Under the pieces are notes generated by a model. The model was not told where the DNA came from and made no database searches. It was given only the letters and a program-made list of their open reading frames with translations. Below, piece after piece: positions 5,137 to 64,000 of a stretch of 64,000 nucleotides of DNA (position 1 is the first letter of the stretch; every line of letters starts with the position of its first letter). Source of the stretch: Anaerolineae bacterium. Lineage in GTDB: Bacteria; Chloroflexota; Anaerolineae; S140-20. The position numbers were made by a program, and so were the translations under genes. The stretch is from positions 60 to 64,059 of the forward strand of contig JALUTT010000022.1 in NCBI GenBank assembly GCA_027021705.1, in the 5' to 3' direction.

Positions 5137-6756
5137 ATGGGTGTGACAACGGATCAGTTTCAGATCGAGAAAGTGAGCACGGGGGGCGACGGCGATGGCT
5201 ACAGCCCCGACGTGATTGACGTGGAAGCCTTCTTCCAGCGGGTGATCACCGGCTACAACGAGGGCTGGGGGCCGGAGGAGTTGCCGGCCGACCTGATGAC
5301 CGCCCGCAGCCTGGTGCCGGCGGGGACCGGGGCCTTCCGCGACTTCAGCTACCTGGCCCCGGAGATCCCCGAGTTCCACAAGGAGCGCTGCACCGCCTGT
5401 ATGTCCTGCGTCAACGCCTGCCCCGACACGGCCATCCTGGGCAAGGTGGTGACGCCGGAGACGCTGGAGGAGCACCTGGCCGGCGTCGAGGACGAGGCGG
5501 AGCGGGCCTACCTGCGCGACCAGTTCGCCGTCACCCGCAAGTTCTACGAGTCGCGGGAGCGGCGGGGGCAGACGCCCGGCTACTTCGGCATCTTCATTGA
5601 CCCGACCAAGTGCAAGGGGTGCGCCGAGTGCGTGGAGGTCTGCCACGACCTGGGCTTTGACGCCCTGAGCATGATCACCAAGCGGGACGAGACCGTTCCC
5701 ATCTACCAGAAGGCCATCAACTTCTTCCGCCGGCTCCCGCCGACGCCGGAGGAGTTCATCTCCGAGCGGCTGCCGGTGGACTACATGCTGAGCGAGGAGG
5801 CCCTCAGCTACGTGGGCGGGGCCGGCTCCTGCGCCGGCTGCGGTGAGGCCACGGCCCTGCGGATGCTGATGGCGGCCACCACCTACCAGTACGGTCGGGA
5901 GAACATGGCCATCGTCGCCGCGACCGGCTGCAACACCGTCTACGGGTCCACCTACCCCTACAACCCCTTCCTGGTGCCCTGGATCAACTCCCTCTTCGAG
6001 AACGCACCGACGACGGCCATGGGCATCCGCGCCCACTGGGATCAACTGGGCTGGCAGGAGAAGCGGCTCTGGGTCCTCGGCGGGGACGGGGCGATGTACG
6101 ACATCGGCTTCCAGGCCCTCAGCCGGATGGTGGCCTCGGGGATGGACATCAAGGTCTTCGTTATGGACACCCAGGTCTACTCTAACACGGGGGGCCAGGC
6201 CAGCACCGCCTCCTTCCCCGGCCAGGGGGCCAAGATGGCGGCCATCGGCAGGACGATCAAGGGGAAGCAGGAGCAGCGGAAGGAGTTGGGCCGCATTATG
6301 ATGATGCACCCCAACGTTTTCGTGGCCCAGACGGTGACGGCCATCCCCAACCACTTCTACCGGGCGGTGATGGAGGCCAACACCTATCCCGGCCCGGCGG
6401 TGGTGATCGTCTACACGCCCTGCCAGCCGGAGCACGGCATCGCCGCCGACCGGAGCCGGTATCAGGCCAAGCTGGCCGTCGAATCCCGCGCCTTCCCCGT
6501 CTTCATCTACGACCCACGCAAGGGGGAGACGATGCGGGAGCGGCTGGACCTGAAGGGGAACCCGGCGGTGAAGGAGGATTGGTACGTGGTGCCCAAGACG
6601 GGGGAGCGGATTGACTTCATCACCTTCGCCCGCAGCGAGGGCCGTTTCGCCCGCAACTTCGACGCCGAGGGGAACCCCAACGAGATCCTGCTGAAGGCCC
6701 AGGAGGATCGGCTGCAGAACTGGCGGCTGCTCCAAGAGCTGGCCGGCCTGCGCTGA
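5137..6756 (+). CDS. Pyruvate:ferredoxin oxidoreductase, ferredoxin + TPP-binding (beta) part
   Basis: CTACMSCVNACP and CKGCAECVEVC 4Fe-4S motifs; GSCAGCGE, ATGC, GGDGAMYDIG and YSNTGGQ motifs. Confidence 0.92.
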   Translation: MGVTTDQFQIEKVSTGGDGDGYSPDVIDVEAFFQRVITGYNEGWGPEELPADLMTARSLVPAGTGAFRDFSYLAPEIPEFHKERCTACMSCVNACPDTAILGKVVTPETLEEHLAGVEDEAERAYLRDQFAVTRKFYESRERRGQTPGYFGIFIDPTKCKGCAECVEVCHDLGFDALSMITKRDETVPIYQKAINFFRRLPPTPEEFISERLPVDYMLSEEALSYVGGAGSCAGCGEATALRMLMAATTYQYGRENMAIVAATGCNTVYGSTYPYNPFLVPWINSLFENAPTTAMGIRAHWDQLGWQEKRLWVLGGDGAMYDIGFQALSRMVASGMDIKVFVMDTQVYSNTGGQASTASFPGQGAKMAAIGRTIKGKQEQRKELGRIMMMHPNVFVAQTVTAIPNHFYRAVMEANTYPGPAVVIVYTPCQPEHGIAADRSRYQAKLAVESRAFPVFIYDPRKGETMRERLDLKGNPAVKEDWYVVPKTGERIDFITFARSEGRFARNFDAEGNPNEILLKAQEDRLQNWRLLQELAGLR

Positions 6757-55384: not shown

Positions 55385-57529
55385 ATGAATCCCATCTCGG
55401 CCTTCTTCCTCAGGAACATCATCCCCGTCTTCTTCCTCTACGGGCTCGCCTTCTTCACGACGGGCCTGGCGCTGGCCCTCGCCAGCCGGCGGCGGTCCCG
55501 GTTTCGGTTCGCCCAGGCGATCCGCCCGCTGGCCGCCTTCGGCATCCTGCACGGTGCCCACGAATGGATCGAGATGTTCCAGAAGATCGGCCTCCAGCTC
55601 GGCACCTACACCCCTACGGTTCCCCAGGAGATGGGCCGACTGGCTGTTCTGAGCCTCTCCTTCCTGATGCTGCTGGCCTTCGGCGGGCTGGGATTGAATT
55701 TGGAGCGAGGAGGACGATGGCGAGCCTACCTCCCCGGTGCGGTGATGACCACCCTGTGGGCAGCAGCCCTGCTGATGGTCAAGGTGGTGCTCAAGCCCTC
55801 ACCCACCGAGATGATCGGACTGGCCGATGTCCTGCTCCGCTACCTCCTGGGAATTCCCGGCGCTCTCCTGGGGACGTGGGCCTTGCGGGCCCAGCAGCGG
55901 ACCTTCCGCGAGCACAAGATGCCTCAGTTCGGACGCGATCTAGGCTGGTGCGCCGTCGCCCTCTTCCTCTACGGCGCGGTCGGCCAGTTCTTCGTCCAGC
56001 CCACCTCCCTCTGGCCCTCAACGGTGGTCAACAGCACCCTCTTCCTGCACTGGTTCGGCCTCCCGGTCCAGCTCTTCCGGGCCATCATGGCCTCCGTCCT
56101 CGCCTTCCACATGATCCGCGCCCTCGATGCTTTCGAGTTGGAGAGCCAGCGCCGGCTGGAGGAGGCCCATCGGGCGAAGCTGCGCGCCCAGGCGGCCGCC
56201 CTCGAGGCGGAGCGCCGCACCAGCCGCGAGATGGAACGGTTGAACGAGGAACTGCGGCTCACGACCCGCGAGCTATCGCTGCTGCTGGACCTCTCCAACC
56301 TTCTGGCCACCCCGATGAGCCTGCGGGAGAGGCTGCACAACGTGCTGGAGCGGATCGTCCGCAGCCTCGACTTCCCGGACGCCGGCATGATCCTGCTCAT
56401 CGGACGCGAGGGCGGGATGCTCCACGTCCAGGCCGCCATCGGCTTCTCATCGGCAGACGGACGAGATGAGCAGACGCCTGAGTACCGCTGGGCGATGCGG
56501 CTGGGCGAGCAGTGCGTGGCCCAGGGCGTGACCATCTGCCGACATCTGGATGGTGTCACCCACGCCCTCTCCCTGGAAAGGGTGGTGCGGGAGGTGGAAA
56601 GCCCCTGCTACAGCAGCCCGCTAGCGATGGTCAGTCTTCCCTTGGCCTTCCAGCAGCAGGTCATCGGCAGCATCGTCCTGGCCCGCATCAAAAGCGAGGA
56701 GGAGAGTAGGGGCGAAACATTTTTCGCCCCTCCCTCGACCGATGAGTTCAAGCTGATGCTAGGGGTGGCCCAGCAACTGGGCCTCTCCATCGAGAACGCC
56801 CGCCTCCATCAGGAGGCCCGGGAGCGAGAGAAGCGGCTGGGGGAGCTGTTGCACCAGGTGGTCAATGCCCAGGAGGCGGAGCGCCAGCGCATCGCCCGGG
56901 AGCTGCACGACGCCACCGCTCAGTCGCTCACCGCCATCGCCCTGGGCCTGCGGGGCGTGGAGGCCCTGCTGGACGAGGACCCGGTGGTGGCGACCCGGGA
57001 GATTCGGGAACTCAAATCCTTCAGCACCGATGCGCTAGGCGAGCTGCGGCGGATCATCTCCGACCTACGCCCTCCTCAGCTCGACGACCTGGGGTTGGTC
57101 GCCGCGCTGCAATGGTACATCCACGAATTTGAGAAGCGCTACGAGATCCCCACCGATTTCGCCGTCGAGGGTAGCGAGTTCCGCTTGCCCTCCGAGTACG
57201 AGACGGTCCTCTTCCGCATCACCCAGGAGGCGCTCACCAACATCGCCAAACATGCCAACGCCTCCCGCGCCTTCGTCCGGCTCGAAATCCGCCCCACCCA
57301 CATCTGCGTGACCGTTCAGGACGACGGCTGTGGCTTCGACCCGGAGGAGGTGCTGGAGGGAACCAGACCACGGACCGGGTGGGGGCTGTTGGGCATCCAG
57401 GAGAGGGCTTTGCTGTTGGGCGGCCACTATGAGATCCACTCAGCACCTGGGCAGGGAACGCGAATCCATGTGCGCGTACCTTTGACAACGGAGCCAGAAG
57501 ATGTCGAAAATACGACTGCTGTTGGTTGA
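55385..57529 (+). CDS. Membrane GAF-domain sensor histidine kinase (HisKA_3/NarX type)
   Basis: About six TM helices, GAF domain, ERQRIARELHD, FRITQEALTNIAKHA, DDGCGF and G.GLLGIQER motifs. Confidence 0.93.
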   Translation: MNPISAFFLRNIIPVFFLYGLAFFTTGLALALASRRRSRFRFAQAIRPLAAFGILHGAHEWIEMFQKIGLQLGTYTPTVPQEMGRLAVLSLSFLMLLAFGGLGLNLERGGRWRAYLPGAVMTTLWAAALLMVKVVLKPSPTEMIGLADVLLRYLLGIPGALLGTWALRAQQRTFREHKMPQFGRDLGWCAVALFLYGAVGQFFVQPTSLWPSTVVNSTLFLHWFGLPVQLFRAIMASVLAFHMIRALDAFELESQRRLEEAHRAKLRAQAAALEAERRTSREMERLNEELRLTTRELSLLLDLSNLLATPMSLRERLHNVLERIVRSLDFPDAGMILLIGREGGMLHVQAAIGFSSADGRDEQTPEYRWAMRLGEQCVAQGVTICRHLDGVTHALSLERVVREVESPCYSSPLAMVSLPLAFQQQVIGSIVLARIKSEEESRGETFFAPPSTDEFKLMLGVAQQLGLSIENARLHQEAREREKRLGELLHQVVNAQEAERQRIARELHDATAQSLTAIALGLRGVEALLDEDPVVATREIRELKSFSTDALGELRRIISDLRPPQLDDLGLVAALQWYIHEFEKRYEIPTDFAVEGSEFRLPSEYETVLFRITQEALTNIAKHANASRAFVRLEIRPTHICVTVQDDGCGFDPEEVLEGTRPRTGWGLLGIQERALLLGGHYEIHSAPGQGTRIHVRVPLTTEPEDVENTTAVG

Positions 57530-58154
57530 CGACCACCAGATCGTGCGGGCCGGGTTGCGCATGCTCTTCCTGGCCGAGAAGGACATGGAGATCGTCGGCG
57601 AGGCGGGCAGCGGCGAGGAAGCCATTCAGGCCGTCCGCGAGCTCAAGCCCGACGTGGTGATCATGGACGTGGCAATGCCCGGTATGAGCGGCATCGAGGC
57701 GACGCGCCGCATTAAGGAGGCCGATCCCGACGTGGCCGTGCTGGCCCTGACCATGTACGAGGACGAGCAGTACTTCTTCGAGATGCTGAGCGCGGGTGCC
57801 TTGGGGTACATCCCCAAACGGGCCGCCCCCGACGACCTGATCTCGGCAGTCCGGGTGGTCAGCCAGGGCAACGTCTTCCTCTACCCCACGATGGCCAAGC
57901 TGCTGGTGGACGACTTCCTGCAGCGGACAGGCCCTGGCTCGGCCCGCACCCTGGAGAGGCTCACCCCCCGCGAGCGCCAGGTGCTGACCTACATCGCCGA
58001 AGGGTACACCAACCAGGAGATCGCCGAGGCGCTGGAGATCAGCGTCAAGACGGTGGACCGCCACCGCGAGAACATCATGCGCAAGCTGAACCTGCACAAC
58101 CGGGTAGAGCTGGTCAAGTACGCCATCAAGAGGGGGCTGATTACCGTCTCCTAG
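57501..58154 (+). CDS. NarL/LuxR-family response regulator
   Basis: LVDDH, VIMDVAMP and LTPRERQVL..IAEG motifs. Confidence 0.95.
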   Translation: MSKIRLLLVDDHQIVRAGLRMLFLAEKDMEIVGEAGSGEEAIQAVRELKPDVVIMDVAMPGMSGIEATRRIKEADPDVAVLALTMYEDEQYFFEMLSAGALGYIPKRAAPDDLISAVRVVSQGNVFLYPTMAKLLVDDFLQRTGPGSARTLERLTPRERQVLTYIAEGYTNQEIAEALEISVKTVDRHRENIMRKLNLHNRVELVKYAIKRGLITVS

Positions 58155-58158
58155 CAGA

Positions 58159-58704
58159 GGTCGGGCTTGGAAAGCCCTCCTACGGGGCCGGTGAAGGTGT
58201 AGGAGGCCCTTCCAGGCCGAGTCCCCGAGGCCGGTGAAGGGCGTAGGAGGCCCTTCCAGGGCCGAGCCTCCAAGGCCGGTGAGGGTGTAGGAGGCCCTTC
58301 CAGGGCCGAGCTCCCGGGGCCGGTGAGGGTGTAGGAGGCCCTTCCTGGGCCGAGCCCCCGGGGCTGGTGAAGGCGTAGGAGGCCCTTCCAGGGCCGAGCC
58401 CCCGGGGCCGGTGAAGGCGTAGGAGGCCCTTCCAGGGCCGAGCCTCCAAGGCCGGTGAGGGTGTAGGAGGCCCTTCCAGGGCCGAGCTCCCGGGGCCGGT
58501 GAGGGTGTAGGAGGCCCTTCCTGGGCCGAGCCCCCGGGGCTGGTGAAGGCGTAGGAGGCCCTTCCAGGGCCGAGCCCCCGGGGCCGGTGAAGGCGTAGGA
58601 GGCCCTTCCAGGGCCGATCTCCCAGGGCCGGGAGGGTCGGGCTTGGAAAGGTCGGGCTTGGAAAGGTCGGGCTTGGAAAGGTCGGGCTTGGAAAGCCCTC
58701 CTAC
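58159..58704. repeat. GTAG-type REP-like tandem array: ten ~44-bp units, four 15-bp units and inverted flanking copies
   Basis: Unit GTAGGAGGCCCT-TCC-AGGGCCGAGC+linker; GGTCGGGCTTGGAAAGCCCTCCTAC at both ends. Confidence 0.9.
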
Positions 58705-58727: not shown

Positions 58728-59063
58728 CTAGGCGGGGTTCGGAATCACGCAGATGAAGCGAAGGGCCTCCGTTCCCGTGTTGACGAACTGGTGCTCCTCG
58801 TTGGGGGGCACGTAGACGACGGTGCCGGCCTCGATGGGCCGATCCCCCTCCTGCCCCCGCACCGCCCCCCGCCCGGCCAGGACGAAGACCTCGTGCTCGT
58901 AATCGTGGGTGTGGTAGGGGGTGTTGGCCCCCGGCTCCACCTCGATGACCCGCATCGCGAAGTTGGGCGCTCCATCCTTCCGGGTGATCACCCAGCGGAT
59001 GGTCACGCCGGGCGTTCCCTCCACGGGCTCCGCCGGGGTCTGGGTGTACGCTTCAACCTTCAT
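58728..59063 (-). CDS. Cupin-domain protein
   Basis: PYHTHDYEHEVFVLAG and YVPPNEEHQF motifs. Confidence 0.9.
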   Translation of the reverse strand: MKVEAYTQTPAEPVEGTPGVTIRWVITRKDGAPNFAMRVIEVEPGANTPYHTHDYEHEVFVLAGRGAVRGQEGDRPIEAGTVVYVPPNEEHQFVNTGTEALRFICVIPNPA

Positions 59064-59704: not shown

Positions 59705-59954
59705 CACCACCTCCTGGTCTAGCGACAAGAGTTGTGATCAGACCAGCTATCCGTTATCTGTGCAAAATGTGTTCCCGCTTCGCTCGGCAGGTCTGGCTTC
59801 TATGTCCACGCCCCCTCCCATCCGCCCAGTCACCTACGGTCAGGCTCAATGCGCGGGTCTCCTTGCCGATGCGCGTATTGGAGATGCGAGCATTTCAGCC
59901 ACCGGGCCGGGATGACTCGCCTCTGCCAGACCTCAAGTGCCGAAGCGCCTGCCC

Positions 59955-60182
59955 TTGCTCTTCCCCTCGACCCACCAACCACCGTTCGCCCGCCGGCCAC
60001 CCCCCGCTCACCCCCGACCCACCGACCCCCATCCGCCCGCAGACCATCCCCCGGCCTTCGCCCCGGCACCCCTTTCCGCCCCGCCAACCCGCCCTCTCCT
60101 GCTCGCTCCAGCACCACTCTTCGCCCCAGGCCGGACCACCCCGCCTTGGCTCCCTTTTCCTGCCCACCCTACACGGCCCCAT
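59955..60182 (-). repeat. ORF-less G-rich cassette-like sequence, copy 1
   Basis: Aligns by eye with 61190-61410 (shared CCCCATCCGCCCGCAGACCATCCCCCGG and others). Confidence 0.75.
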
Positions 60183-60310
60183 CCCTAACGACCAGGAGCC
60201 CAGCTACCACCCAACACAGGCAAGGTGCCCTCGCCGGCGAGCACGGTGCCAAGCAAGACCAACCCTGATGAGCCCACGATAGGGCGGTTGGCTGCGGCGA
60301 CCGGTTAGGC
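60183..60310 (-). other. Integron attC site (degenerate, most distal)
   Basis: Minus strand GCCTAAC...GCAGCCAAC...GCTGGGCT...GTTAGGG; L/R spacing atypical. Confidence 0.55.
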
Positions 60311-60369
60311 GATTTAGAATATCTGGTGTATAATAGACACGTGCTCCAACCGTGCATCAGGAGGATAGA

Positions 60370-60597
60370 ATGTACACTCCTTTGATCGAAAAGGTGGTAA
60401 AACATCTCCAAACTCTACCCTACGAATCCCAGCGCCGGGTGCTCGAGTTTACCCAAGCCCTGGCCACCTCCACCCCTCGCGGCATCCCAGGACATATCCT
60501 CCTCCGCTTCGCGGGCTCCATCCCGCCCGACGACGTAAGACGAATGCACCAGGCCATCGAAGAGGGCTGCGAGCAAATCAATGCCAATGAATGGTAA
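60370..60597 (+). CDS. Putative antitoxin (DUF2281-like), inverted cassette
   Basis: Small ORF overlapping a PIN toxin; TATAAT at 60329 upstream. Confidence 0.7.
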   Translation: MYTPLIEKVVKHLQTLPYESQRRVLEFTQALATSTPRGIPGHILLRFAGSIPPDDVRRMHQAIEEGCEQINANEW

Positions 60598-60976
60598 ATA
60601 CCTCCTGGACACCAACATCCTCATCGCCCTCTTCGCCAACGACCGTTCGGTCAAAGATCACCTCGCCCAAGCCGAGGAAATCTTCATCCCTAACATCACT
60701 GTTGGCGAGCTCTTCTACGGCGCCTGGAAATCCGCGCGCGCCCAGGAAAACTTGCAGCGGATTGAAGACCTGGTTGTCGAGACCCCCGTGTTGGGCTGTG
60801 GCATCGAGACCGCGCGCCTATATGGCCGCATCAAGAACGCACTGCGACTCAAAGGACAGCCCATTCCAGAAAACGACATCTGGATCGCCGCCATTGCAGT
60901 GGAACACGACCTCACTCTCGTCACACGCGATGCCCACTTCGCAGAGGTCCCTGACCTGCAAGTAGCTGTTTGGTAA
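60587..60976 (+). CDS. vapC: PIN-domain VapC toxin
   Basis: YLLDTNILI, ITVGELFYGA and NDIWIAAIA...LVTRDAHF motifs. Confidence 0.93.
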   Translation: MNGKYLLDTNILIALFANDRSVKDHLAQAEEIFIPNITVGELFYGAWKSARAQENLQRIEDLVVETPVLGCGIETARLYGRIKNALRLKGQPIPENDIWIAAIAVEHDLTLVTRDAHFAEVPDLQVAVW

Positions 60977-60984
60977 ACCTCGAG

Positions 60985-61113
60985 ACCCAACGACCTGCGG
61001 TTGTGCCGCCGTTCCACCTCCCGGACCCAGGCCCCCCAACGCCCCGAAAAAACCGATTTGCGGAACGCCAAGCCGCGCCGATTTGAAAGGTCGGCACCAA
61101 CCGCCGGTTAGGA
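60985..61113 (-). other. Integron attC site (long type, 129 bp)
   Basis: Minus strand TCCTAAC-CGGCG-GTTGGTGCCG...CGGCACAACC-GCAGGTC-GTTGGGT, with one extra base in L''. Confidence 0.88.
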
Positions 61114-61434
61114 AAGACCCTCTTGGCCCTATGACCTCCATCCGCCCCAGGCGGCCCTTTTTCTCCGCCTCCGAACCATCAGCCCCCATTCGCTTGGGAT
61201 TCCCCTTGCTCTCACCTCCGACCCACCAACCCCCATTCGCCCCCGATGACCGCCCCCTCCCCCTCGAACCACCGACCCCCATCCGCCCGCAGACCATCCC
61301 CCGGCGTTTCGCCCCGGCACCTCCCTTCGCCCCCGCTAACCCGCCCTCCTCCTCCCGCTCCAGGGTCACCTTTCGCCCCAAGCCGGACCATCCCGCCCTC
61401 GCTTGCTCTCTCCGCCTATCCCCCACGCCTCCGT
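61114..61434 (-). other. ORF-less (non-coding) gene cassette
   Basis: 321 bp bounded by two attC sites; no credible ORF; G-rich top strand. Confidence 0.75.
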
Positions 61435-61515
61435 TCCTAACGTGCAGCCCAGCGGCTCGCAAGCGAGGGAGCGAAGCGACCGAGTGCAGCGAGTCCGCTG
61501 CAGCCGATGCTAGGC
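61435..61515 (-). other. Integron attC site (81 bp)
   Basis: Minus strand GCCTAGC-ATCGG-CTGCAGCGG...CCGCTGGGCT-GCAC-GTTAGGA; the upstream gene's TAG stop lies in R''. Confidence 0.8.
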
Positions 61516-61998
61516 GATTTCGCCAGCCAACCGTAAGATACGACGACGAATGTCTCCCGATACCCACATACCTGCCTGAACCAGCTTATCTACATAAGGC
61601 GCCACCTCTGAAATCACGCCCTGTTCTTTGAGTTCAAGGAGCACACGAAGCGTTCCCCACACTTGCAATCCGGCAGCCTGGGCTATCCGACGGGCCAGAA
61701 GATCATCCAACAAAATGACCTGTTCCCGGTGTTCAAGGGCCAAAGCCAATGCGGCCAATTCTCCAAGGCCCAAGTCTAGGGCCAGCCACTCTTCAGGCAC
61801 ATAACGCGGGTTCACGCGCTTGATCCACAGGTATCGCTCAATCACTGGCACGTCGTATCCCCGCTGCTGCCCGGCCTCAAGCTCTGCTATCACGGCATCA
61901 GGAACCCATACCTCGGTAAAAAGCCGTGCTAACCACGCCAACCCGCCGATCCGGTACAAATAAAGTAACGGCGAAGTGTTGCTAATCGCGATGTCCAC
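61510..61998 (-). CDS. DUF3368-type PIN-domain protein (toxin-like)
   Basis: AISNTSPLLYL, LDLGLGELAALALA, ILLDD..ARR.A...GL.VWGTL motifs. Confidence 0.88.
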   Translation of the reverse strand: MDIAISNTSPLLYLYRIGGLAWLARLFTEVWVPDAVIAELEAGQQRGYDVPVIERYLWIKRVNPRYVPEEWLALDLGLGELAALALALEHREQVILLDDLLARRIAQAAGLQVWGTLRVLLELKEQGVISEVAPYVDKLVQAGMWVSGDIRRRILRLAGEIA

Positions 61999-62242
61999 GG
62001 GCTGCCTCCAGCTCCTCTAATTCGGCTGCAAGGGGAAACACCCGATAGCGGTGCAGGTTTAAGAGAAACTCCACCCGTGGCACGCCCGCTAGTTCAGCCG
62101 CGCGGCCCGAGGAGAGGCGTCCCATTTCATAGAGCTTTACGGCAGCCAACATGCGCAATTCCCGCGCAAAAGTCTCCGGGTCACTCTTTTCGGCCAAAAG
62201 CACCTTCTCTGGGATGCTCAAGACCACCTTCAATTCACTCAT
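61982..62242 (-). CDS. UPF0175-family antitoxin-like protein
   Basis: LAAVKLYEMGRLSSGRAAELAGV motif; overlaps the DUF3368 gene. Confidence 0.88.
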   Translation of the reverse strand: MSELKVVLSIPEKVLLAEKSDPETFARELRMLAAVKLYEMGRLSSGRAAELAGVPRVEFLLNLHRYRVFPLAAELEELEAARGHRD

Positions 62243-62299: not shown

Positions 62300-62369
62300 G
62301 CCTAACGGCTCAGCTCAGCCGCCCGCCAGAACGCCAGCGGAGGCGGGTCGGCTGGAGCGGATGTTAGGC
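62300..62369 (-). other. Integron attC site (70 bp)
   Basis: Minus strand GCCTAAC-ATCCG-CTCCAGCCGAC...CGGCTGAGCT-GAGCC-GTTAGGC. Confidence 0.93.
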
Positions 62370-62469
62370 CGCGCCCCCTGTCCCACCACACCAAAATGAC
62401 CGCCTACAGCACAGGATCACAGGATTCGATAGGCACGTGAAATCTCGTAAAGTGAAGCAGCCTGGTATT

Positions 62470-63021: not shown

Positions 63022-63091
63022 GCCTAACGGCCCAGCTCAGCCGCCCGCCGGAGCGCCAGCGGAAGCGGGTCGGCTGCAGCGGGTGTTGGGC
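63022..63091 (-). other. Integron attC site (70 bp)
   Basis: Minus strand GCCCAAC-ACCCG-CTGCAGCCGAC...CGGCTGAGCT-GGGCC-GTTAGGC. Confidence 0.93.
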
Positions 63092-63103
63092 GGCACTTGG
63101 CTG

Positions 63104-63765: not shown

Positions 63766-63892
63766 GCCCAACGACCTGCGGTTGTGCCGCCGTTCCAACC
63801 CTCGGACCCAAGCCCCCCAACGCCCCGAAAACCGATTTGCGGAACGCCAAGCCGTGCCGATTCGAAAGGTCGGCACCAACCGCTTGTTAGTG
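63766..63892 (-). other. Integron attC site (long type, 127 bp)
   Basis: Near-copy of 60985-61113; minus strand CACTAAC...GTTGGGC. Confidence 0.88.
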
Positions 63893-64000
63893 CTGCCCTC
63901 CTTGGCCCCAACACCTCCATTCGCCCCCGGCTCCCCTCGCTCTCACCCTCGAACCACTACCCCCCGCTCGCTTTCGGTTCCTCGTTGCTCTCACTCTTGA
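63893..64000 (-). repeat. ORF-less G-rich cassette-like sequence, copy 3 (cut by the window edge)
   Basis: CTTGGCCCCAACACCTCCATTCGCCCCCGG resembles the 61120-61260 region. Confidence 0.6.

What the first reader, a model, noticed from the sequence alone, without database searches (positions are those of the whole stretch)
61114..61434. Recurrent ORF-less, strand-skewed cassette family tied to the long attC type
Seen: a 321-bp attC-bounded segment has no credible ORF, is strongly G-rich on the top strand and has several GGGGCGAA units. Homologous sequence occurs at 59955-60182 and 63893-64000. The copies at 61114 and 63893 are each followed by the 127-129-bp attC. Copies share blocks but have indels, arguing against a protein. 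Inference: a self-propagating non-coding cassette (RNA, spacer, G-quadruplex-forming or regulatory DNA) of unknown function.
Basis: partly seen in the sequence, partly recalled or inferred. Interest (0 to 1): 0.68.

Follow-up and report, generated by a model that had tools for sequence, protein, structure and literature searches.

The report
Gene-less repeat cassette family in integron
This is a multi-copy integron cassette that encodes no protein: a G-rich stretch of degenerate 47-base repeats always attached to its own 127-base recombination site, most likely a selfish or neutral passenger of the integron rather than a gene or a structured RNA.

Summary
Window 61113-61440 is an attC-bounded, ORF-less segment. 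It is 53% G and 15% C on the minus strand, which is the sense (top) strand of a cassette array. It has homologues at 59952-60189 and at 63892-64000. Copies B and C are each followed on the minus strand by a 125-127-nt attC.

Scans recovered at least 25 non-identical copies from hydrothermal-vent metagenomes, often three in tandem. Every complete copy is followed by the same long attC.

The body is a degenerate minisatellite with a 47-nt period and a variable number of units.

- **Not coding:** 11 of 18 indel blocks are 1 nt long, there is no 3-nt periodicity, substitutions fall equally on all three codon phases, and the only recurrent ATG ORF is 25, 33 or 59 codons long.
- **No other signal found:** there is no Rfam match, folding is no more stable than in shuffles, there is no sigma-70 promoter and no conserved terminator. 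G4 motifs are no more frequent than composition predicts.
- **Relative conservation:** the attC is conserved at 93% (arms 96-98%), the body at only 80-87%, with neutral-like substitutions.

Best reading: a selfish or neutral non-coding cassette spread by its attC. It is a new variant of the paralogous non-coding cassettes known from Vibrio. Interest is moderate.

The parts
61113..61440 (-). Copy B: the body of a complete gene-less cassette (328 nt). It is a G-rich degenerate 47-nt minisatellite and the shortest variant of the family, lacking about 4 units found in other copies.
   Evidence: el5 model 61264-61441, E 1e-43; el3 model 61114-61205, E 9e-21
60986..61112 (-). Long attC of cassette B (127 nt). 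It has R'' CCTAAC at 61112-61107, R' GTTGGG at 60991-60986, and a long imperfect hairpin with one bulged base.
   Evidence: (E 1e-38)
59952..60189 (-). Copy A: a truncated copy at the distal end of the array. It has the 5' conserved region plus one unit, but no 3' part and no attC. It abuts the leader of a molybdopterin oxidoreductase gene.
   Evidence: (el5 60015-60189, E 1e-28); the full-length counterpart with a long attC is in L012
63892..64000 (-). Copy C: the 3' units of an element, cut by the end of the window. In the near-identical contig L001 it is about 215 nt long and follows the stop codon of a PycTM-domain gene with no attC in between.
   Evidence: (el3 63897-63981, E 6e-15)
63767..63891 (-). 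Long attC of cassette C (125 nt; R'' here is ACTAAC).
   Evidence: 94% identical to 60986-61050; E 4e-38
61436..61516 (-). attC of the preceding UPF0175/DUF3368 toxin-antitoxin cassette. Its GTT marks the 5' boundary of cassette B.
60184..60311 (-). An unrelated 127-nt attC belonging to the inverted vapBC-like cassette. Its GTT marks the 5' boundary of copy A.
   Evidence: the same attC type precedes family copies in L012 and L016

Best explanation
**What it is.** It is a non-coding integron cassette family. Each member has a body of 330-520 nt followed by a cognate 125-128-nt attC hairpin site. The body is built from degenerate 47-nt units and is about 54% G and 15% C on the sense strand.

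**How it works.** The unit that is maintained is the attC. The body is filler that gains and loses whole 47-nt units by slippage or unequal exchange, and otherwise drifts almost neutrally. The cassette multiplies and moves the way any cassette does (this step is inferred). The integron integrase recombines the folded bottom strand of the attC, excises a small circle and re-inserts it. This gives many paralogous copies, runs of tandem copies and varied neighbours. It most likely makes no product and gives the host little or nothing, so it is a selfish or neutral passenger.

**Why the skew points this way.**
- Computed: the strand that carries the recombining attC hairpin is the C-rich strand, which has little to pair with, so the hairpin stays foldable. 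The opposite orientation would sequester it.
- Inferred: the untranslated sense RNA is G-rich and C-poor, so it is a poor Rho substrate and should not silence downstream cassettes. Antisense RNA is C-rich and rut-like.
For: **Anatomy**
- The core sites, the hairpin and the divergence of sequence exactly after GTT fit an attC-bounded cassette.
- The same cassette is followed by a different cassette in L003.
- At least 7 different upstream and at least 8 different downstream neighbours were seen.
- Three cassettes lie in tandem in L007, L012 and L016.
- In two vent metagenomes the depth over the long attC is about 20-25 times that of the flanking single-copy cassettes, and contig joints lie at attC borders.

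**Non-coding**
- Of 18 indel blocks, 11 are 1 nt long and the large ones are 47, 48, 95, 98 and 144 nt.
- The autocorrelation peak is at lag 47 (0.50 against a median of 0.36).
- There is no 3-nt periodicity (0.361 against 0.362), whereas four real genes of the window show it.
- Substitutions are even over the three phases (p 0.48-0.76), and the ATG ORF is 25, 33 or 59 codons long with its start lost once.

**Filler that drifts**
- Mean pairwise identity is 80-87% in the body, 93% in the attC, 96-98% in the attC arms and 90% in the attC centre.
- Per-site transition rates are alike (G>A 0.33, A>G 0.44, C>T 0.35, T>C 0.42), with a net loss of G (86 lost, 33 gained).
- Truncated copies, copies interrupted by an insertion sequence and a copy fused to a gene all exist.

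**Skew and folding**
- The median probability of the bottom-strand attC stem is 0.066 alone and 0.037 with its own C-rich body.
- It is 0.006 with GC-balanced random bodies and about 1e-16 with the body inverted.
- For copy B, 0.93 of the stem probability is retained. Two neighbouring coding cassettes retain 0.70-0.81 with their own attCs. The long attC retains 0.09-0.95 when joined to foreign bodies.

**Precedent:** highly paralogous non-coding cassettes in Vibrio arrays have been proposed to be either selfish or useful to the integron (PMC1382264).
Against: - No integron integrase was found in the 64-kb window or in any fetched locus, so recombination by IntI is inferred, not shown.
- All copies are 78-96% alike and come from one habitat. 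The 'neutral-like' pattern therefore rests on shallow divergence and cannot exclude a function that needs only composition or repeat number.
- The folding advantage is modest. The own body is near the top of the random controls but not beyond them, and one coding body does equally well.
- Promoter prediction in gene-less cassettes is known to be unreliable (PMC11014356).
- No RNA data exist for these sequences.
- A G content of 54% over 300-500 nt is extreme, and inheritance from a G-rich seed unit explains it only descriptively.
Confidence: 0.55

Rival explanations
1. The element is a directional transcription filter. The body would let sense transcription through, because G-rich, C-poor untranslated RNA gives Rho no place to load. 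It would stop antisense transcription, because C-rich, G-poor, unstructured RNA is an ideal Rho loading site. It would thus insulate cassettes from the promoters of inverted toxin-antitoxin cassettes.
For: - The antisense RNA would be 54% C and 15% G over more than 300 nt and is predicted to be almost unstructured within the body.
- Copy B lies exactly between two convergent toxin-antitoxin operons, vapBC-like on the plus strand and UPF0175/DUF3368 on the minus strand.
- The properties of rut sites are taken from established knowledge.
Against: - The convergent arrangement is one locus seen in several near-identical contigs, so it counts as a single case.
- Most copies sit in tandem runs with no inverted gene nearby.
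- In Vibrio gene-less cassettes, inhibiting Rho did not change expression (PMC11014356).
- Whether the host has Rho is unknown.
Confidence: 0.12
2. The element forms G-quadruplexes or R-loops. The G-rich top strand would fold into quadruplexes, or the G-rich sense RNA would stay hybridised to the C-rich template. Either would change how much single-stranded DNA is available around the attC, and so alter recombination, replication or expression.
For: - Every copy has 1-3 canonical G4 motifs.
- The mean G4Hunter score is 1.14-1.34, with 25-nt windows reaching 1.8-2.6.
- The copies are among the largest G4-prone clusters of the 64-kb window.
- A G density above 50% with G clusters meets the usual R-loop sequence criteria (established knowledge, not tested here).
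Against: - The number of motifs is equal to or below that in shuffles of the same composition (2.0-3.7).
- G runs are not protected. GGGGG to GGAGG changes are among the commonest differences.
- An R-loop would tie up the bottom strand, which is the strand that must fold.
Confidence: 0.1
3. The element is an array of protein-binding sites. The repeated 47-nt units would bind a host or integron protein (the integrase, a nucleoid protein or a regulator), and the number of units would set the strength.
For: - The repeat is regular, with the most constant core GGCGAATGG...GTTGGTGG...GTGAGAGC.
- The number of units varies while the period is kept.
Against: - Unit positions are only 45-98% conserved, and no palindrome or dyad is apparent.
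- The likeness to the attC arm is no better than in shuffles (725 of 1000 shuffles score at least as well).
- The Chi-like octamer GTTGGTGG is rare in the rest of the window.
- No partner protein is linked to the cassette.
Confidence: 0.08
4. The element is a promoter-carrying gene-less cassette like those of Vibrio and oral integrons, driving the cassettes downstream.
For: Most tested gene-less cassettes of Vibrio superintegrons have sense-strand promoter activity, and it cannot be predicted reliably in silico (PMC11014356; PMC6557892).
Against: - There is no sigma-70-like match on either strand of any window copy.
- The body is 68-70% G+C with no AT-rich stretch, unlike the AT-rich Vibrio cassettes.
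- Tandem runs of three promoters make little sense.
Confidence: 0.07
5. The element makes a product: a small protein, a Gly-rich or Pro-rich low-complexity protein, or a structured small RNA.
For: - Gene callers do call ORFs here: a 59-aa ORF in L002 and L003, and P0001-P0005.
- An ATG with an upstream GAGG is present in 10 of the 12 copies examined.
Against: - The indels shift the frame, and the ORF length varies (25, 33 or 59 codons).
- The start codon is ACG in one copy and GTG in another.
- There is no codon-phase bias and no 3-nt periodicity.
- The 47-nt period is not a multiple of 3.
- There is no Rfam hit, and folds are no better than shuffles.
Confidence: 0.04

Closest known systems
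Paralogous non-coding cassette families of Vibrio chromosomal integrons (Boucher et al. 2006, PMC1382264; e.g. 45 copies in V. vulnificus CMCP6)
   Same: - They are attC-bounded cassettes without a conserved ORF.
- There are many paralogues in one array.
- Homologues are more than 80% alike over their whole length.
- They are confined to one lineage.
- The same open question applies: selfish, or useful to the integron?
   Different: - The body here is a 47-nt minisatellite with a variable number of units and an extreme strand skew (G 54%, C 15%).
- The host is GC-rich and lives at hydrothermal vents.
- Copies often lie in tandem.
Gene-less promoter cassettes (Blanco et al. 2024, PMC11014356; Tansirichaiya et al. 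2019, PMC6557892)
   Same: Both are ORF-less cassettes inside arrays that could influence the expression of their neighbours.
   Different: Those cassettes are AT-rich and owe their activity to -10-like sequences. This family is 68-70% G+C and has no sigma-70-like match. Promoter activity has not been tested.
Long attC sites of sedentary chromosomal integrons (V. cholerae repeats; a 128-bp VCR is described in PMC11014356)
   Same: - The length is 125-128 nt.
- The site forms a near-perfect long hairpin with RYYYAAC/GTTRRRY ends.
- The sequence is highly uniform within one array type.
   Different: - The sequence is unrelated.
- The single bulged base is G on the top strand (C on the bottom strand), not the usual bottom-strand G.
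- This attC type is almost always attached to one particular body.
Rho utilisation (rut) regions and G-rich R-loop-prone or G4-prone repeats such as immunoglobulin switch regions (an analogy of mechanism only)
   Same: All are long, strongly strand-skewed, tandemly repeated, untranslated sequence. The C-rich RNA on one strand has rut-like composition, and the G-rich non-template strand lies on the other.
   Different: No functional evidence was obtained here. G4 motifs are not enriched over composition. There is no homology to any of these.

Membership tests
Integron gene cassette | Inverted core sites R'' (RYYYAAC) and R' (GTTRRRY) at the ends of the recombination site | tested here: met
   26 long attCs carry CCTAAC...GTTAGG or GTTGGG, and the R boxes pair in the consensus fold.
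Integron gene cassette | attC folds as an imperfect hairpin with inner (L) repeats and extrahelical bases on the recombining strand | tested here: inconclusive
   The consensus has 46 pairs, an unpaired spacer and one bulged base. The bulge lies on the arm expected if the window plus strand is the bottom strand, but its base is C rather than the usual G. The neighbouring 71-nt attC has T and G bulges on the 3' arm of the plus strand, as expected.
Integron gene cassette | Crossover at G|TT: sequence beyond GTT belongs to the next cassette and differs between contexts | tested here: met
   After CGTT the 26 copies continue as AGGAAC (before another family copy), AGGCCG, GGGTCT, AGCCAG, AGATCT and others. 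L003 differs from the window exactly at this point.
Integron gene cassette | Cassette genes co-oriented with the attC top strand | tested here: met
   About 18 cassette ORFs in the metagenome loci, 5 in L001 and 4 of the 6 cassette genes in the window lie on the G-rich strand. Only the vapBC-like pair and insertion-sequence transposases are inverted.
Integron gene cassette | Array adjoins an integron integrase gene with attI and Pc | tested here: inconclusive
However, the array runs off the window at 64000, which is the side where intI would lie. It may also be a cluster of attC sites without an integrase.
Integron gene cassette | Excision and insertion by IntI shown experimentally | not testable with these tools
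   Only indirect evidence is available: variable order of cassettes and contig joints at attC borders.
Paralogous non-coding cassettes (Vibrio type) | No conserved ORF and no codon-like substitution pattern | tested here: met
Paralogous non-coding cassettes (Vibrio type) | Several paralogues per array that are alike over their whole length | tested here: met
   At least 25 copies were found at 78-96% identity. Tandem triplets occur. Depth over the attC is about 20-25 times the single-copy level.
Paralogous non-coding cassettes (Vibrio type) | Confined to one lineage or habitat | tested here: met
   Copies were found only in hydrothermal-vent metagenomes and MAGs. None was found in plasmids or viral contigs. 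Only 5 spurious ORFs turned up among 5.8 billion proteins.
Promoter-carrying gene-less cassettes | [quoted passage not shown] | tested here: inconclusive
   The element has no sigma-70 consensus match. The authors of PMC11014356 report that such promoters cannot be predicted in silico, so a reporter assay is needed.
G-quadruplex-forming element | Four or more G3+ runs with short loops | tested here: met
   There are 1-3 motifs per copy, with G4Hunter peaks of 1.8-2.6.
G-quadruplex-forming element | Motifs enriched over composition, or G-runs conserved | tested here: not met
   Shuffles of the same composition give 2.0-3.7 motifs. G-runs are often broken by G>A changes.
Rho loading (rut-like) region, antisense RNA | Long C-rich, G-poor, unstructured, untranslated RNA | tested here: met
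   The RNA would be C 0.54 and G 0.15. The plus-strand RNA fold is almost empty within the body. Dependence on Rho cannot be tested here.
Structured non-coding RNA | Match to a described family, or a fold more stable than shuffles | tested here: not met
   There is no Rfam match at E<=1 in the region. Fold z-scores are +0.85 and +1.23.
Protein-coding gene (Gly-rich or Pro-rich) | A reading frame kept across homologues | tested here: not met
   The long ORFs cross attC borders.
Minisatellite | Head-to-tail units of constant period with copy-number variation | tested here: met
   The period is 47 nt (29 of 44 units; the rest are 46 or 48). Differences between copies of 47, 48, 95, 98 and 144 nt correspond to whole units.

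The most novel reading that the evidence does not exclude
The strand-skewed minisatellite is not mere filler but a cis-acting helper that makes this cassette unusually mobile. It would keep the recombining (bottom) strand free of competing structure. It might also hold the duplex open through quadruplexes on the G-rich strand, so that the adjacent long attC folds and recombines more often. That would make it a cassette adapted for its own spread. A second unexcluded reading of similar novelty is a Rho-based one-way transcription insulator between cassettes.
Probability: 0.15. Interest if true: 0.7.

Novelty: new variant of a known kind. Interest (0 to 1): 0.42.

Why it matters
A large share of integron cassettes have no recognisable gene, and their role is still debated: promoters, small RNAs or selfish DNA. 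This family is a clean natural case in a GC-rich, non-Vibrio setting. The recombination site is clearly conserved while the body drifts, gains and loses repeat units, is interrupted by insertion sequences, and still multiplies to about 20 copies. That supports the view that an attC alone can sustain a cassette.

The orientation of the skew suggests two simple constraints on what a harmless passenger must look like: it must not disturb attC folding, and it must not cause Rho polarity. Both can be tested with standard recombination and reporter assays.

There are practical consequences too. These sequences produce spurious Gly/Arg-rich and Pro-rich ORFs of 59-249 aa in annotations. They also break metagenome assemblies: contigs are short and one ends in a poly-C run.

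Tried and rejected
- **Small conserved ORF.** Rejected on indel lengths, ORF length, start loss and the absence of any phase signal.
- **Structured RNA.** Rejected for now. There is no Rfam hit, and neither strand folds better than shuffles.
- **Selected G-quadruplex motifs.** Not supported. Motif counts are at or below the composition expectation.
- **The 47-nt unit as a copy of the attC arm** (shared GGTTGGTG). Rejected, because 725 of 1000 shuffled units align at least as well.
- **Units as Chi-like sites** (GTTGGTGG fits GNTGGTGG). Not supported. GTTGGTGG occurs only 3 times in the 59.7-kb chromosomal part and shows no strand bias there.
- **Sigma-70 promoter or intrinsic terminator.** None is conserved. 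One terminator-like hairpin on the plus strand at 61142-61154 occurs only in a subset of copies.
- **Transcription evidence.** No RNA runs hold the sequence. Only DNA metagenomes do.
- **Integrase.** None was found in the window or the loci.
- **Wider distribution.**
  - The genome scan gave one short MAG contig, labelled Chromatiales, whose binning is unreliable.
  - Plasmids and viral contigs gave nothing.
  - Two protein searches using translations of the element gave only 5 spurious ORFs.
- **L015.** This hit from the metagenome scan is a chance 21-mer match with no attC.
- **Technical note.** The first version of the folding script timed out and printed nothing. It was rerun.

Full report
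**1. The observation.**
- The region from 59.7 kb to the end of the window is a cassette array with CCTAAC...GTTAGG sites.
- The flagged segment is C-rich on the window plus strand, so it is G-rich on the minus strand: G 0.53, C 0.15-0.16. GC skew per kb falls to -0.25 and -0.30 there, against about +/-0.1 elsewhere.
- GGGGCGAA occurs 4 times in the segment, 2 times in copy A and once in copy C. A 24-nt unit motif hits 4 times against 0.00 expected.
- Copies at 59952-60189 and 63892-64000 are homologous (nhmmer E 1e-28 and 6e-15).
- Two long attCs, 60986-61112 and 63767-63891, adjoin copies B and C.
- Mechanical ORFs of 249 and 182 aa cross the segment, but they also cross the attC borders.

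**2. Which strand is the top strand.**
- The cassette genes for HD, a 169-aa protein, UPF0175 and DUF3368 lie on the minus strand. Only the vapBC-like pair is inverted.
- In related contigs about 18 further cassette ORFs, and all five genes of L001, lie on the G-rich strand.
- The 71-nt attC at 62300-62370 folds with T and G bulges on the 3' arm of the plus strand, as expected for a bottom strand.
Each element is followed by the long attC.
- The window order on the minus strand is as follows:
  1. Copy C (see section 7) with its long attC.
  2. The HD cassette.
  3. The 169-aa cassette.
  4. The UPF0175/DUF3368 cassette.
  5. Copy B with its long attC.
  6. The inverted vapBC cassette.
  7. 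The truncated copy A.
  8. A chromosomal molybdopterin oxidoreductase gene.

**3. The family.**
- Look-up of a neighbouring protein gave four near-identical contigs, L001-L004. In L003 a different cassette follows the long attC, and the sequence diverges exactly after GTT.
- A genome scan with a unit pattern gave one 2.6-kb MAG contig, L005.
- A metagenome scan with a 21-mer of the long attC gave 17 loci. One is a chance match and one duplicates L005.
- Profile mapping found at least 25 non-identical element copies. Every complete copy has the order 5' region, units, 3' region, long attC. L007, L012 and L016 each hold three cassettes in tandem.
- The reverse does not always hold. Two long attCs have another body or almost none.
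- In two vent metagenomes, the summed contig depth over the long attC is 2140 against about 72-110 for flanks, and 305 against about 15. Joints lie at attC borders.
- The family was found only in hydrothermal-vent data. It is absent from plasmids and viral contigs. It is nearly absent from a 5.8-billion protein set searched with its translations.

**4. Architecture.**
- An alignment of 13 full cassettes shows four parts:
  1. A 5' region of about 185 nt.
  2. A variable number of 47-nt units.
  3. A 3' region of about 95 nt.
  4. The attC.
- Autocorrelation peaks at lags 47, 94-95 and 142.
- Of 44 units cut out, 29 are 47 nt long and the rest 46 or 48.
- Large differences between copies are 47, 48, 95, 98 and 144 nt, that is, whole units.
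- Window copy B is the shortest variant.

**5. Not a gene, not a known RNA.**
- Eleven of 18 indel blocks are single bases.
- There is no 3-nt periodicity, while four real genes of the window show it.
- Substitutions fall evenly on the three phases (p 0.48-0.76).
- The one recurrent ATG ORF is 25, 33 or 59 codons long. Its start is ACG in one copy and GTG in another, and the window copy is shifted relative to the others after about 28 codons.
- Rfam gives nothing in the region.
- The whole cassette folds no better than shuffles on either strand (z +0.85 and +1.23).
- No sigma-70-like promoter lies in any copy, and no terminator-like site is conserved.
- G4 motifs are present (1-3 per copy) but are not above what composition alone gives.

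**6. What is conserved.**
- Mean pairwise identity is 93% for the attC (arms 96-98%, centre 90%) and 80-87% for the body.
- The attC consensus fold has 46 pairs that are almost never broken.
- In the body, transitions dominate. Per-site rates are similar in all four directions, and G is being lost on balance.
- Truncated copies exist, one copy is interrupted by an insertion sequence and one is fused to a gene.
- The attC therefore looks selected and the body looks weakly constrained, or unconstrained beyond its composition.

**7. Copy C is a special case.** In L001, which continues past base 64000, about 215 nt of units lie between the stop codon of an AT-rich PycTM-domain gene and the long attC, with no attC between them. 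The same gene cassette follows copy B in L003. Cassettes have therefore been reshuffled, and the repeat body can also sit in a gene-bearing cassette.

**8. Mechanism.**
- The best-supported reading is a selfish or neutral non-coding cassette carried by an efficient attC. Movement by an integron integrase is inferred, because no integrase gene is in the DNA available.
- I asked why the skew has this orientation, using DNA-parameter partition functions. The median probabilities of the bottom-strand attC stem are as follows:
  - Alone: 0.066.
  - With its own C-rich body: 0.037.
  - With GC-balanced random bodies: 0.006.
  - With the body inverted: about 1e-16.
- For copy B, 0.93 of the stem probability is retained. 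Two coding neighbours retain 0.70-0.81. The long attC joined to four foreign bodies retains 0.09-0.95.
- This is consistent with a body that does not interfere with attC folding, but the margin is modest.
- By composition, the sense RNA should be a poor Rho substrate and the antisense RNA a very good one. This is an inference from established knowledge of rut sites and was not tested.
- The rivals are a Rho-based one-way insulator, G4 or R-loop DNA, a protein-binding array, a promoter cassette and a product-encoding element. Each is listed separately with its own test.

**9. Comparison with what is known.**
- Highly paralogous, lineage-restricted non-coding cassettes were described in Vibrio arrays, with the same selfish-or-useful question (PMC1382264).
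- Gene-less cassettes of Vibrio and oral integrons often act as promoters (PMC11014356, PMC6557892).
- This family fits the first kind. It differs in having a minisatellite body, an extreme strand skew and a GC-rich vent host.
- Full-text searches for integron/attC together with G-quadruplex or tandem repeats found nothing relevant.
- I therefore rate it a new variant of a known kind, of moderate interest.

**10. Limits.**
- All copies are closely related and come mostly from one metagenome.
- The host taxon is not established.
- There are no RNA data.
- The folding numbers are model estimates with small control sets.

Noticed in passing
window 58183-58695: A 44-nt tandem repeat occurs 10.2 times (90% matches) and is followed by a 15-nt repeat present 4 times. 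Both lie between a cupin gene (58728-59063, minus strand) and the ORF at 57234-58097. Each 44-nt unit holds the palindrome GGCCCTTCCAGGGCC. The repeat is unrelated to the cassette family. A 190-aa ORF called across it is probably spurious.
   Followed up: no
L001:350-1267 (continues window copy C beyond base 64000): An AT-rich PycTM-domain gene (Pfam PF18967) is followed directly by about 215 nt of G-rich units and the long attC, forming one hybrid cassette. The same gene cassette sits after copy B in L003, so cassette order differs between near-identical strains.
   Followed up: partly
L008:5240-6972; L008:1086-4227; L021:4058-4705: An ORF resembling an IS3-family transposase (5545-6417, minus strand; identified by eye, no family search run) lies inside an interrupted element copy. 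Further ORFs resembling transposases (IS701/IS4-like and IS110-like, likewise identified by eye) lie in the same arrays.
   Followed up: no
L002:160-478 and L013:1987-2232: In L002 a long attC is preceded by only about 22 nt after another attC, making a nearly empty cassette. In L013 a long attC is preceded by DNA that is not G-rich. The long attC type is therefore not exclusive to the family.
   Followed up: partly
window 60352-62242: Copy B with its attC lies between two convergent toxin-antitoxin cassettes. One is a vapBC-like pair (PIN toxin at 60581-60976) on the plus strand, and the other is UPF0175/DUF3368 on the minus strand.
   Followed up: partly
window 63022-63092 and 62300-62370: The 71-nt attC type is also highly repeated in the vent metagenomes. 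Depth is 624 against about 15 in X3 and 386 in X5, and many contigs end there with unrelated continuations.
   Followed up: no
L005:150-420 and L005:2540-2639: Three direct repeats of about 115 nt lie upstream of the cassette genes. The contig ends in a poly-C run of about 100 nt, right where the C-rich element should continue, which is probably an assembly artefact.
   Followed up: no
L010:1594-1773: A truncated piece of the long attC lies 74 nt before a full copy of it.
   Followed up: no
window 61020-61045 and 63799-63826 (minus strand): The long attC itself carries a canonical G4 motif on its top strand.
   Followed up: no
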